From a virus (taxonomy: Duplodnaviria; Heunggongvirae; Uroviricota; Caudoviricetes), in IMG/VR virus record IMGVR_UViG_2703718859_000024: a DNA stretch of 7,944 bases; one strand, given 5' to 3'. The notes under the pieces were generated by a model, which had not been told where the DNA came from, did not search any database, and saw nothing but the letters and a program-made list of their open reading frames with translations. Positions 3,953 through 5,262 of the stretch are shown piece after piece (position 1 is the stretch's first letter; every line of letters begins with the position of its first letter). The position numbers were made by a program, and so were the translations under genes.

Positions 3953-4267
3953 TCACGAATGGCGATAATCAGTACTGATATCTCCGTTACGGCAACGCCA
4001 GTTGTACACCTCCACAACCTCACTGAATCCGGCCACAAGTTCAGCCGTAACAGCGATGGAATCGCCCAGGCTGCGCAGTTCGTCCATGTCAGGATCAATG
4101 CTGTCACTCATGCCAGAAAGTAAGCGCCCTGTGATAGCCAGCCCTTCAAGCAATTTGCGGGCGTAGAAGTCAGCATCATCAAACATCGCTCTCGCTTCCC
4201 GTGCGTCAGCTGCTTTTATGGTTGTAACCAGTTGTTCAAGTATTCTGGTGTTACACACATCACGCAT
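3953..4267 (-). CDS. Hypothetical protein, about 104 aa (ORF-track entry 3953..4297 begins at TTG; the internal ATG is preferred)
   Basis: ATG at 4267-4265 preceded by GGGGGGA and overlapping the stop of the 154-aa gene by 8 nt, the same geometry as the junction between the two paralogs. Stop TGA at 3955-3953. No recognisable motif. Confidence 0.45.
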   Translation of the reverse strand: MRDVCNTRILEQLVTTIKAADAREARAMFDDADFYARKLLEGLAITGRLLSGMSDSIDPDMDELRSLGDSIAVTAELVAGFSEVVEVYNWRCRNGDISTDYRHS

Positions 4268-4724
4268 GACGTCCCCCCTGACGAATACGGGCGACAAAAA
4301 TCAGATGGGTATGCGGAAGTTGTGCGCGGGTTTCGCGTTCTGTTGCTGCCGTGGCGGTAAAGGGTGAGGCTTGTTTTTCATGGCACTGCATAAAGCGCCA
4401 GACAAAGTAAGGGCGTGCGGATACAGCCATGTGAAAGGCTCCTGTAGTGAAATTAAGGAGTCTCGCTACTACGCTGCTAAACATGGTGGCGAGACGTAAC
4501 GGGGTTAGCAGACTGGCACTACAGGAACCAGCGAGCGCAAAGGCTCCCCCGTTACGCCCCGCCATAATGCGGGTATGGGTAGGTTTACGGACGCAAAAAA
4601 ACCGCATATCGGAATGTAAGCGGCTGTCCGCTGTAGTATTCAGGCTGCTAAACCCGGTCGCCATGTGGGCGACTCCGGCATCATACAGCCCGAAAGAAGA
4701 GGCGATCAACATGTTTTTAAGCAT
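4260..4724 (-). CDS. Hypothetical protein, 154 aa; downstream member (A) of the tandem paralog pair
   Basis: ATG at 4724-4722 preceded by GGGGGTGAG and overlapping the 3' end of the upstream paralog by 8 nt; stop TGA at 4262-4260. C-terminus ...FVWRF...TERETRAQ...IFVARIRQGGRHA parallels ...FIWRF...TEREARNR...VFAARIRQGVSHA of the 181-aa protein. Confidence 0.5.
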   Translation of the reverse strand: MLKNMLIASSFGLYDAGVAHMATGFSSLNTTADSRLHSDMRFFCVRKPTHTRIMAGRNGGAFALAGSCSASLLTPLRLATMFSSVVARLLNFTTGAFHMAVSARPYFVWRFMQCHEKQASPFTATAATERETRAQLPHTHLIFVARIRQGGRHA

Positions 4725-5262
4725 GACTCACCCCCTGACGAATACGGGCAGCGAATACAGCGACACAACCGGACGGGCAACGGTTACGCGCTTCGCGTTC
4801 CGTCCAGGCGGTTACGTGGATAATTTGACGTTCTGACGTGCCAAAGGTGATAAAACGCCAGATAAAGGCAGTCTGAGAATGTACGAGGGCTGGGGTAGTA
4901 GCCATGATGGCAGCCTCCTTTATCGTTGGGATATACCCACCGCTGGAGGTTCCAATCTCGCTGGCGGTGGACTGCACGGAGTTGGAACTACTGGCGATAA
5001 AGGAAACCAGCCTGACCGAAGTCAGCCCCATACAGCCCACCATTGATAAGGTGTGCGTGTGCGCCGATACAAAAAAAGACGCGTTCGGCGTCTGTATCGC
5101 CTTTATCTCCAGCGGGGTTCCAATCCCGACACCCGTTTTATAAGGTGCGCGGGAATCATAGCCATTTTTGATACTGGCGATCAACTGATTTTCTCTGGCG
5201 GGTATTTGGCGCGGATGCCTGTTGCCTGTGACAATATGCACACGACTGTATACAATACACAT
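4717..5262 (-). CDS. Hypothetical protein, 181 aa; upstream member (B) of a tandem paralog pair
   Basis: ATG at 5262-5260 preceded by AAGGAG at about 8-nt spacing; stop TAA at 4719-4717. Homologous over its length to the next gene (shared N[MQ]LIAS, YD, FF, THT, WRF, TERE and C-terminal ARIRQG..HA). The corresponding plus-strand ORF is not preserved in the other copy. Confidence 0.5.
   Translation of the reverse strand: MCIVYSRVHIVTGNRHPRQIPARENQLIASIKNGYDSRAPYKTGVGIGTPLEIKAIQTPNASFFVSAHTHTLSMVGCMGLTSVRLVSFIASSSNSVQSTASEIGTSSGGYIPTIKEAAIMATTPALVHSQTAFIWRFITFGTSERQIIHVTAWTEREARNRCPSGCVAVFAARIRQGVSHA

What the first reader, a model, noticed from the sequence alone, without database searches (positions are those of the whole stretch)
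4260..5262. Tandem pair of diverged paralogous genes with conserved WRF / TERE / ARIRQG-HA C-termini and 8-nt start-stop overlaps
The 181-aa and 154-aa minus-strand ORFs are homologous over their whole length at protein level, and the underlying DNA also shows the duplication (for example ccccctgacgaatacgggc at about 4273-4291 and about 4728-4746). Each is followed by a gene whose ATG overlaps its stop by 8 nt, downstream of a G-rich Shine-Dalgarno-like run at the same relative position. Conservation of the minus-strand frame in both copies, while the plus-strand ORF of one copy is destroyed by an immediate stop in the other, argues that these are real coding genes. I cannot place them in any family.
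Basis: seen in the sequence. Interest (0 to 1): 0.6.

Follow-up and report, generated by a model that had tools for sequence, protein, structure and literature searches.

The report
Two tandem P4-type RNA immunity cassettes
The two "unplaceable paralogous genes" are two copies in a row of a known phage P4/P1-type switch, in which a small antisense RNA hidden inside a long reading frame blocks translation of a short Icd/Kil-like gene; the less ordinary point is that the two copies recognise different target sequences.

Summary
Two minus-strand ORFs (5262-4717, 181 aa; 4724-4260, 154 aa) are colinear diverged duplicates, and each stop overlaps the next ATG by 8 nt.

The interpretation needs correcting. 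Each ORF overlies a full phage P4/P1-type RNA immunity cassette:
- a sigma-70-like promoter;
- an isrK/seqA-like leader;
- a C4/CI antisense RNA (Rfam 77.6 and 73.5 bits);
- target sites, the last of which covers the Shine-Dalgarno sequence of a nested short ORF.

The nested ORFs (62 and 56 aa) belong to the Icd-like family (NF033153), as does P4 Kil by position.

- **Coding signal:** only the nested part evolves like a protein (dN/dS 0.30-0.33). The upstream two-thirds has dN/dS of about 1, yet its frame stays free of stops. This matches P4's nested eta/kil genes.
- **Specificity:** the loops of each C4 RNA pair with 7-10 nt sites in their own cassette only. Across relatives, 23 loop specificities co-vary with their targets.
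- **Distribution:** arrays of two or three cassettes recur in related enterobacterial islands.

Verdict: known components, already annotated as Icd-like/Ash in RefSeq. The serial arrangement of cassettes with orthogonal specificities is a modest new variant. Interest is moderate to low.

The parts
4717..5262 (-). Long ORF1 (181 aa), eta-like. An SD (TAAGGAG, 5276-5270) sits 7 nt before ATG 5262. The ORF contains cassette 1 and ends with the nested icd/kil-1.
   Evidence: Pfam Phage_ASH covers aa 35-129. BLASTP against the P4 eta ORF gives E=4e-6, colinear. The frame has no stops over the 280 nt upstream of the nested ATG in 31/34 relatives.
5155..5184 (-). Promoter-like site P1 (TTGATC, 18 nt, TATGAT), internal to ORF1. 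The -10 box ends 7 nt before the isrK model start.
   Evidence: consensus scan only. The position is equivalent to P4 PLE.
5072..5148 (-). isrK/seqA-like leader 1. Target a1 (UUGGAAC, 5123-5117) lies in a hairpin loop, b1 (GAUAAAGG) is at 5107-5100, and an intrinsic terminator hairpin at 5093-5077 is followed by a U run.
   Evidence: Rfam RF01394 at 61.5 bits (gathering score 50). Terminator. Complementarity. Fold.
4960..5047 (-). C4/CI antisense RNA 1. Loop b' is UCCUUUAUCG (5004-4995); single-stranded a' is GUUCCAA (4988-4982).
   Evidence: Rfam RF01695 at 77.6 bits (gathering score 45). MFE -41.5 kcal/mol, z = -4.85. Own covariance model: 104.5 bits.
4914..4955 (-). seqC-like targets of cassette 1: a2 (4955-4949) and b2 (CGAUAAAGGA, 4925-4916), the latter overlapping SD AAGGAGG (4920-4914).
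   Evidence: In 20,000 loop shuffles none reached all four site matches.
4717..4905 (-). Nested short ORF icd/kil-1 (62 aa, MATTPALV...). Its stop overlaps the ORF2 ATG by 8 nt.
   Evidence: NF033153 at 55.9 bits (cut-off 25). It aligns from M1 with a P1-type Icd. dN/dS is 0.33. RefSeq annotates this same short CDS in L001.
4260..4724 (-). Long ORF2 (154 aa), eta-like. It starts at ATGCTTAA, which overlaps the icd-1 stop. It contains cassette 2 and ends with the nested icd/kil-2.
   Evidence: The junction ATG(N)2TAA is conserved in 25/25 unique relatives, and 1-nt indels in them are compensated. No in-frame stop sites occur, against 11 and 15 in the other two frames.
4680..4709 (-). Promoter-like site P2 (TTGATC, 18 nt, TATGAT), internal to ORF2.
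   Evidence: Relatives carry TTGCAA ... TATGCT at the same place.
4595..4686 (-). isrK/seqA-like (c4-a1b1) leader 2. It carries a1 (UUAGCAG, 4651-4645) and b1 (ACUACAG, 4637-4631), and has a weaker terminator-like hairpin followed by a U run.
   Evidence: Rfam isrK at 36.6 bits and c4-a1b1 at 32.4 bits, both below their gathering scores. Complementarity. Fold z = -2.07.
4482..4569 (-). C4/CI antisense RNA 2. Loop b' is UCCUGUAGUG (4526-4517); a' is CUGCUAA (4511-4505).
   Evidence: Rfam RF01695 at 73.5 bits. MFE -48.2 kcal/mol, z = -5.65.
4439..4480 (-). seqC-like targets of cassette 2: a2 (4480-4474) and b2 (CACUACAGGA, 4449-4440), the latter overlapping SD AGGAG (4443-4439).
4260..4430 (-). 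Nested short ORF icd/kil-2 (56 aa, MAVSARPY...). Its stop overlaps the next ATG by 8 nt.
   Evidence: NF033153 at 42.7 bits. dN/dS is 0.30. The SD+ATG (GGAGCCTTTCACATG) is invariant in the 27 unique icd2-type relatives listed.
3953..4267 (-). Downstream ORF (104 aa from ATG 4267), translationally coupled to icd-2. It sits where P4 has epsilon. Its function is unknown. It is the first of the genes that the cassettes would control (DUF4222, RepA-like helicase, SSB, PerC, Mor).
   Evidence: There are no Pfam, NCBIfam or PHROG hits and no similarity to P4 epsilon. It is annotated as a hypothetical protein in L001.

Best explanation
The region holds two complete phage P4/P1-type antisense-RNA immunity cassettes in series, on the minus strand, in the early operon of a small integrative island (int - orf298 - alpA - [cassette 1][cassette 2] - orf104 - DUF4222 - RepA-like helicase - SSB - PerC - Mor).

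**Layout of each cassette**
- A constitutive-looking promoter sits inside a long ORF.
- It drives a leader RNA (isrK/seqA-like) that carries target sites a1 and b1 and a terminator.
- Next comes a C4/CI-class RNA.
- Then come target sites a2 and b2. Site b2 covers the Shine-Dalgarno sequence of a nested short ORF of the Icd/Kil family.

**Inferred mechanism (by analogy with P1 C4 and P4 CI)**
- The roughly 80-nt RNA is cut out of the leader.
- It pairs through its a' and b' segments with a2/b2 and blocks translation of the short ORF.
- The untranslated transcript is then terminated, so the downstream replication and regulatory genes stay off.
- When the short ORF is translated, the 8-nt stop/start overlaps pass ribosomes on to the next gene.

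**The long ORFs (181 and 154 aa)**
- They are counterparts of P4 eta.
- Their amino-acid sequence upstream of the nested start is not conserved, but the frame is kept open.
- The likely reason is that ribosomes arriving from upstream read through the RNA genes and override that cassette's block. For ORF1 they would come from read-through past alpA, using its own SD. For ORF2 they would come by coupling from icd-1.

**The two cassettes together**
- They have non-cross-reacting (orthogonal) a/b specificities.
- The island therefore makes two different immunity RNAs and has two independently gated entries into the same operon.

**Shown here:** the RNA family membership, the complementarities and their co-variation, the coding signatures, the open frames and the conserved junctions.

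**Inferred only:** RNA processing, termination, the override, and any cell-division toxicity of the short proteins.
For: **RNA and protein family hits**
- C4 scores 77.6 and 73.5 bits (gathering score 45). isrK scores 61.5 bits for cassette 1. Cassette 2 has a weaker isrK/c4-a1b1 hit.
- The NF033153 Icd-like model hits only the C-terminal ~45 aa of each ORF.
- Phage_ASH covers exactly the stretch from the -10 box through isrK, C4 and the SD.

**Signals at matching positions**
- Identical promoter-like hexamers lie at the same relative position in both units. Each -10 box ends 7 nt before the isrK model start.

**Loop-target pairing**
- a' and b' pair with a1, b1, a2 and b2 over 7, 8, 7 and 10 nt in cassette 1, and 7, 7, 7 and 10 nt in cassette 2. 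Site b2 lies over the SD.
- None of 20,000 loop shuffles reached all four matches.
- Among 69 C4 copies in related loci there are 23 (a', b') specificities. In nearly all of them the element's own four targets match over 7-10 nt at fixed offsets. Two or three fall short at b1 or b2 under exact Watson-Crick matching, including the P1-like phage (visible).
- Cross-matches between the tandem units are only 3-7 nt in all 10 distinct combinations, and 3-5 nt in this window.

**RNA structure**
- The C4 fold is 98.1% paired, with 14 pairs showing changes on both sides.

**Comparison with P4**
- P4 shows the same layout: isrK at 8692-8615, C4 (= CI) at 8507-8420, a nested kil starting MATT... after GGAGGCTGCCATCATG, and an 8-nt kil/epsilon overlap.
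- The P4 eta/kil/CI/seqA model is described in PMC10111431. PMC4825925 and PMC3632133 equate isrK with seqA, and PMC3632133 also equates C4 with CI.

**Coding signatures**
- dN/dS is 0.30/0.33 in the icd part and 1.24/0.92 upstream of it.
- The ratio of third-position to first/second-position diversity is 2.15/1.94 in the icd part and 0.72/1.14 upstream.

**Open frames**
- 25/25 and 31/34 relatives have no in-frame stop in the 280 nt before the nested ATG, against 0-1 for the other two frames.
- Single-nucleotide indels come in compensating pairs.
Against: - There are no expression data. The promoters are consensus matches only.
- Cassette 2's leader is below Rfam's gathering scores, and its terminator hairpin is weak.
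- The open long frames come from closely related sequences, so the counts are not independent. Sequence constrained by RNA function resists new stops anyway.
- In other islands the same frame stays open for more than 1 kb upstream. At least part of that is the antisense shadow of a real gene on the other strand. Open frames here are therefore not proof of translation.
- ORF1 is not coupled to alpA as P4 eta is to ORF88. It lies 174 nt downstream of alpA with its own SD.
- The downstream gene is neither an antirepressor (as in P1) nor epsilon (as in P4).
- The primary P4 paper (Forti 1999) could not be read. The P4 model is taken from a secondary account and from my own recollection.
Confidence: 0.8

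Rival explanations
1. One reading: two ordinary paralogous proteins of 181 and 154 aa, homologous along their whole length, that act as full-length proteins (for example Ash/Bro-network regulators).
For: - Both long frames are open and colinear.
- Pfam Phage_ASH matches ORF1.
- PHROG families of full-length relatives exist (phrog_29966, 304 bits).
- RefSeq annotates the 154-aa form as a CDS.
- In-frame stops are avoided.
Against: - The N-terminal two-thirds coincide base for base with promoter, isrK and C4 elements.
- That part has dN/dS of 0.92-1.24 and no third-position excess.
- Its variable positions are exactly the a and b pairing sites, and they change in step with each other rather than as codons.
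- A strong SD and ATG for the short form are invariant.
- A P1-type Icd aligns from residue 1 of the short forms.
Confidence: 0.08
2. Only the RNAs and the short Icd-like ORFs are functional. The long ORFs are never translated, and their open frames are inherited accident plus RNA-level constraint.
For: - dN/dS is about 1 upstream of the nested ATG.
- The relatives are closely related, so the counts are not independent.
- Long open frames in this phase elsewhere are partly antisense shadows.
- 3 of 34 cassette-1 relatives do carry in-frame stops.
Against: - Mean stops per sequence are 0 (cassette 2) and 0.29 (cassette 1) in frame, against 2.1-6.2 in the other two frames across the same sequences.
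- In cassette 2 there are 22 polymorphic stop sites in the other frames and none in frame.
- Two different +1 insertions each accompany the same -1 deletion, restoring the frame.
- An ATG overlapping the upstream stop is conserved in 25/25 relatives.
- ORF1 has its own SD.
- P4 eta is reported to be translated, with a regulatory role (PMC10111431).
Confidence: 0.1
3. One of the two cassettes is a decaying relic of a duplication and no longer does anything.
For: - Cassette 2's leader scores below Rfam's gathering thresholds, and its terminator is weak.
- ORF2 has no Phage_ASH hit.
Against: - Both C4 copies match the full-length model far above threshold.
- Both have four intact target sites of their own specificity.
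- Both icd parts are under purifying selection.
- The cassette-2 type is conserved, with co-varying specificity switches, in 25 unique relatives, and is present in 140 of 5426 complete E. coli genomes.
Confidence: 0.02

Closest known systems
Phage P4 immunity region: PLE promoter, seqA, cI (CI RNA), seqC, and the nested same-frame genes eta and kil, followed by epsilon
   Same: - The order of elements is the same and the Rfam hits are the same: isrK = seqA, C4 = CI.
- Both have a promoter inside the long ORF.
- Both have a nested short ORF beginning MATT... after GGAGGCTGCCATCATG.
- In both, b2 lies over the SD.
- Both have an 8-nt stop/start overlap with the next gene.
- ORF1 and P4 eta are colinear, 33% identical over 113 aa.
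- The eta-like length is comparable: 181 aa here, 197 codons in P4.
   Different: - There are two cassettes in series with different a/b specificities. P4 has one.
- ORF1 is not ATGA-coupled to the alpA/vis homologue.
- The second long ORF is coupled to the first short ORF.
- The downstream genes differ: no epsilon, and a RepA-like AAA_25 helicase in place of the alpha primase.
- No sid/delta/psu genes are present in the window.
Phage P1/P7 immI operon (c4 antisense RNA - icd - ant1/2), with its P1/P7 heteroimmunity
   Same: - A C4-class RNA has a' and b' segments that pair with a1/b1 and a2/b2.
- The Icd-like leader ORF has its SD covered by b2.
- Translational coupling passes ribosomes to the next gene.
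- Specificity is set by a few loop nucleotides, with matching target changes.
- The P1/P7 facts are from my own knowledge of Citron and Schuster 1990 and were not read here.
   Different: - No antirepressor lies downstream.
- The RNA genes lie inside a long open frame.
- Two cassettes are carried on one element, rather than one per phage.
Gifsy-1 isrK-orf45-anrP locus of Salmonella (PMC4825925)
   Same: - An isrK-family leader with its own terminator gives a short and a read-through isoform.
- A small leader ORF is translationally coupled to the downstream gene.
- A stable processed RNA lies downstream of isrK.
   Different: [quoted passage not shown] Whether the isrK-like RNAs here do so is unknown.
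- The downstream gene there is an antirepressor-like AnrP.

Membership tests
C4/CI antisense RNA (Rfam RF01695) | Match to the covariance model at or above the gathering score, with the three-helix fold | tested here: met
   The two copies score 77.6 and 73.5 bits against a gathering score of 45, both full length 1-87. Fold z-scores are -4.85 and -5.65. Across 29 distinct relatives the structure is 98.1% paired, with 14 pairs showing changes on both sides (that alignment was fitted to the model).
C4/CI antisense RNA system (P1 immI / P4 immunity) | The unpaired a' and b' segments are complementary to two target pairs, one upstream (a1, b1 / seqA) and one downstream (a2, b2 / seqC). The downstream pair covers the ribosome-binding site of the first ORF. 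| tested here: met
   Matches are 7, 8, 7 and 10 nt in cassette 1 and 7, 7, 7 and 10 nt in cassette 2, with b2 over the SD. None of 20,000 loop shuffles reached all four. Co-variation is seen across 23 specificities.
C4/CI antisense RNA system (P1 immI / P4 immunity) | The mature RNA is processed from the leader transcript (RNase P/PNPase), and it causes translational block and premature termination | not testable with these tools
   This needs RNA mapping and reporter assays.
isrK / seqA-like leader (Rfam RF01394; RF03163 c4-a1b1) | Match at or above the gathering score | tested here: inconclusive
   Cassette 1 is met: 61.5 bits against 50. Cassette 2 is below threshold: isrK 36.6 against 50, c4-a1b1 32.4 against 46.7. 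Even so, it has a1 and b1 sites and a similar fold.
Host cell division inhibitor Icd-like (NCBIfam NF033153) | HMM score above the curated cut-off | tested here: met
   Scores are 55.9 and 42.7 bits against a cut-off of 25, covering profile positions 1-48 of 48. The hits lie only in residues 133-176 of ORF1 and 107-149 of ORF2.
Host cell division inhibitor Icd-like (NCBIfam NF033153) | The protein inhibits cell division or is toxic when expressed | not testable with these tools
   This needs an expression phenotype.
Pfam Phage_ASH (PF10554) | HMM score above the gathering score | tested here: inconclusive
   ORF1 is met: 51.2 bits against 26, residues 35-129. ORF2 has no hit at E <= 0.01. The matched stretch is the translation of the stretch from the -10 box through isrK, C4 and the SD, and dN/dS there is about 1.
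P4 eta/kil nested genes | A long ORF starts upstream of the internal promoter, in the same frame as a short ORF that has its own SD and ATG downstream of the RNA gene. The next gene overlaps the common stop. | tested here: met
   P4 itself was read for comparison. The frame is open in 31/34 and 25/25 relatives.
P4 eta/kil nested genes | [quoted passage not shown] | tested here: not met
   ORF1 starts 174 nt after the alpA stop, with its own SD. ORF2 is coupled to icd-1 instead. Upstream promoter activity was not tested.
P1 immI operon | An antirepressor gene (ant) is coupled downstream of icd | tested here: not met
   The downstream 104-aa ORF has no Pfam, NCBIfam or PHROG hit.
P4-like satellite | Core genes sid, delta, psu, epsilon and the alpha primase are present | tested here: not met
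   None were found in the 7.9-kb window. Replication is by an AAA_25 RepA-like helicase plus SSB. No epsilon similarity was found. The core gene list is from my own knowledge.

The most novel reading that the evidence does not exclude
Serial, mutually orthogonal antisense-RNA immunity cassettes form a deliberate two-input (or three-input) switch. Each cassette gates its own promoter's entry into the island's replication operon. Translation of the first leader ORF is passed by the 8-nt overlap into the second long ORF. Ribosomes then plough through the second RNA gene and its targets, making upstream derepression dominant. The island would thus carry two immunity specificities at once: it could silence, or be woken by, two different classes of related phages or satellites. 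The a and b modules reassort freely between islands. A corollary is that the Pfam 'Ash' domain is largely the translation of RNA genes, kept open for ribosome transit rather than for its amino-acid sequence.
Probability: 0.3. Interest if true: 0.6.

Novelty: new variant of a known kind. Interest (0 to 1): 0.4.

Why it matters
**Annotation.** Two well-supported regulatory RNAs lie hidden inside CDSs that RefSeq labels 'Icd-like' or 'ash family'. No RNA is annotated in the near-identical E. coli island. In the listed genomes that hold the cassette-2 sequence, out of 140 of 5426, the only features under the match are Icd-like CDSs. The 'Ash' protein-domain signal there coincides with RNA genes.

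**Biology.** The cassettes sit directly in front of the island's replication genes, so they are probably its lysogeny/activation switch. A conserved array of two or three non-cross-reacting cassettes offers a natural example of orthogonal RNA repressors wired in series. The co-varying a/b sites give a ready-made set of specificity variants for testing immunity and cross-talk among satellites, P1-like phages and Stx phages that carry the same module.

**Limits.** The components and the basic mechanism are long known, so the advance is incremental.

Tried and rejected
- **Species-genome scan:** scanning the collection with an Icd alignment returned only one locus. I switched to viral contigs, which gave 105 loci.
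- **Loop-sequence scans:** searching viral contigs for the exact b' loop sequences (15-16 nt) gave 19 and 84 matches. Apart from loci already in hand, nearly all were in metagenomic contigs. I took them for chance matches without checking them against the C4 model. They gave no usable evidence of a helper phage sharing this window's specificities.
- **Large fusion proteins:** in other islands the icd frame stays open for up to 2 kb, which might have meant real 400-700-aa 'Bro-network' proteins. I rejected this as evidence. The translations are Cys/Ser/Arg-rich, and in L006 they overlie a plausible ribbon-helix-helix-like gene on the other strand.
- **Downstream ORF as P4 epsilon:** no similarity was found.
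- **P1-type antirepressor downstream:** none was found.
- **dN/dS between the two window paralogues:** not informative on its own, because dS is saturated at 1.67. I used orthologue sets instead.
- **Literature:** the primary P4 paper (PMC94026) is not held. Two searches returned only irrelevant papers. I found no description of tandem cassettes, but most of the P4/P1 literature is not in the library.
- **tRNA search:** ARAGORN finds no tRNA in the window, although Rfam and RefSeq do.
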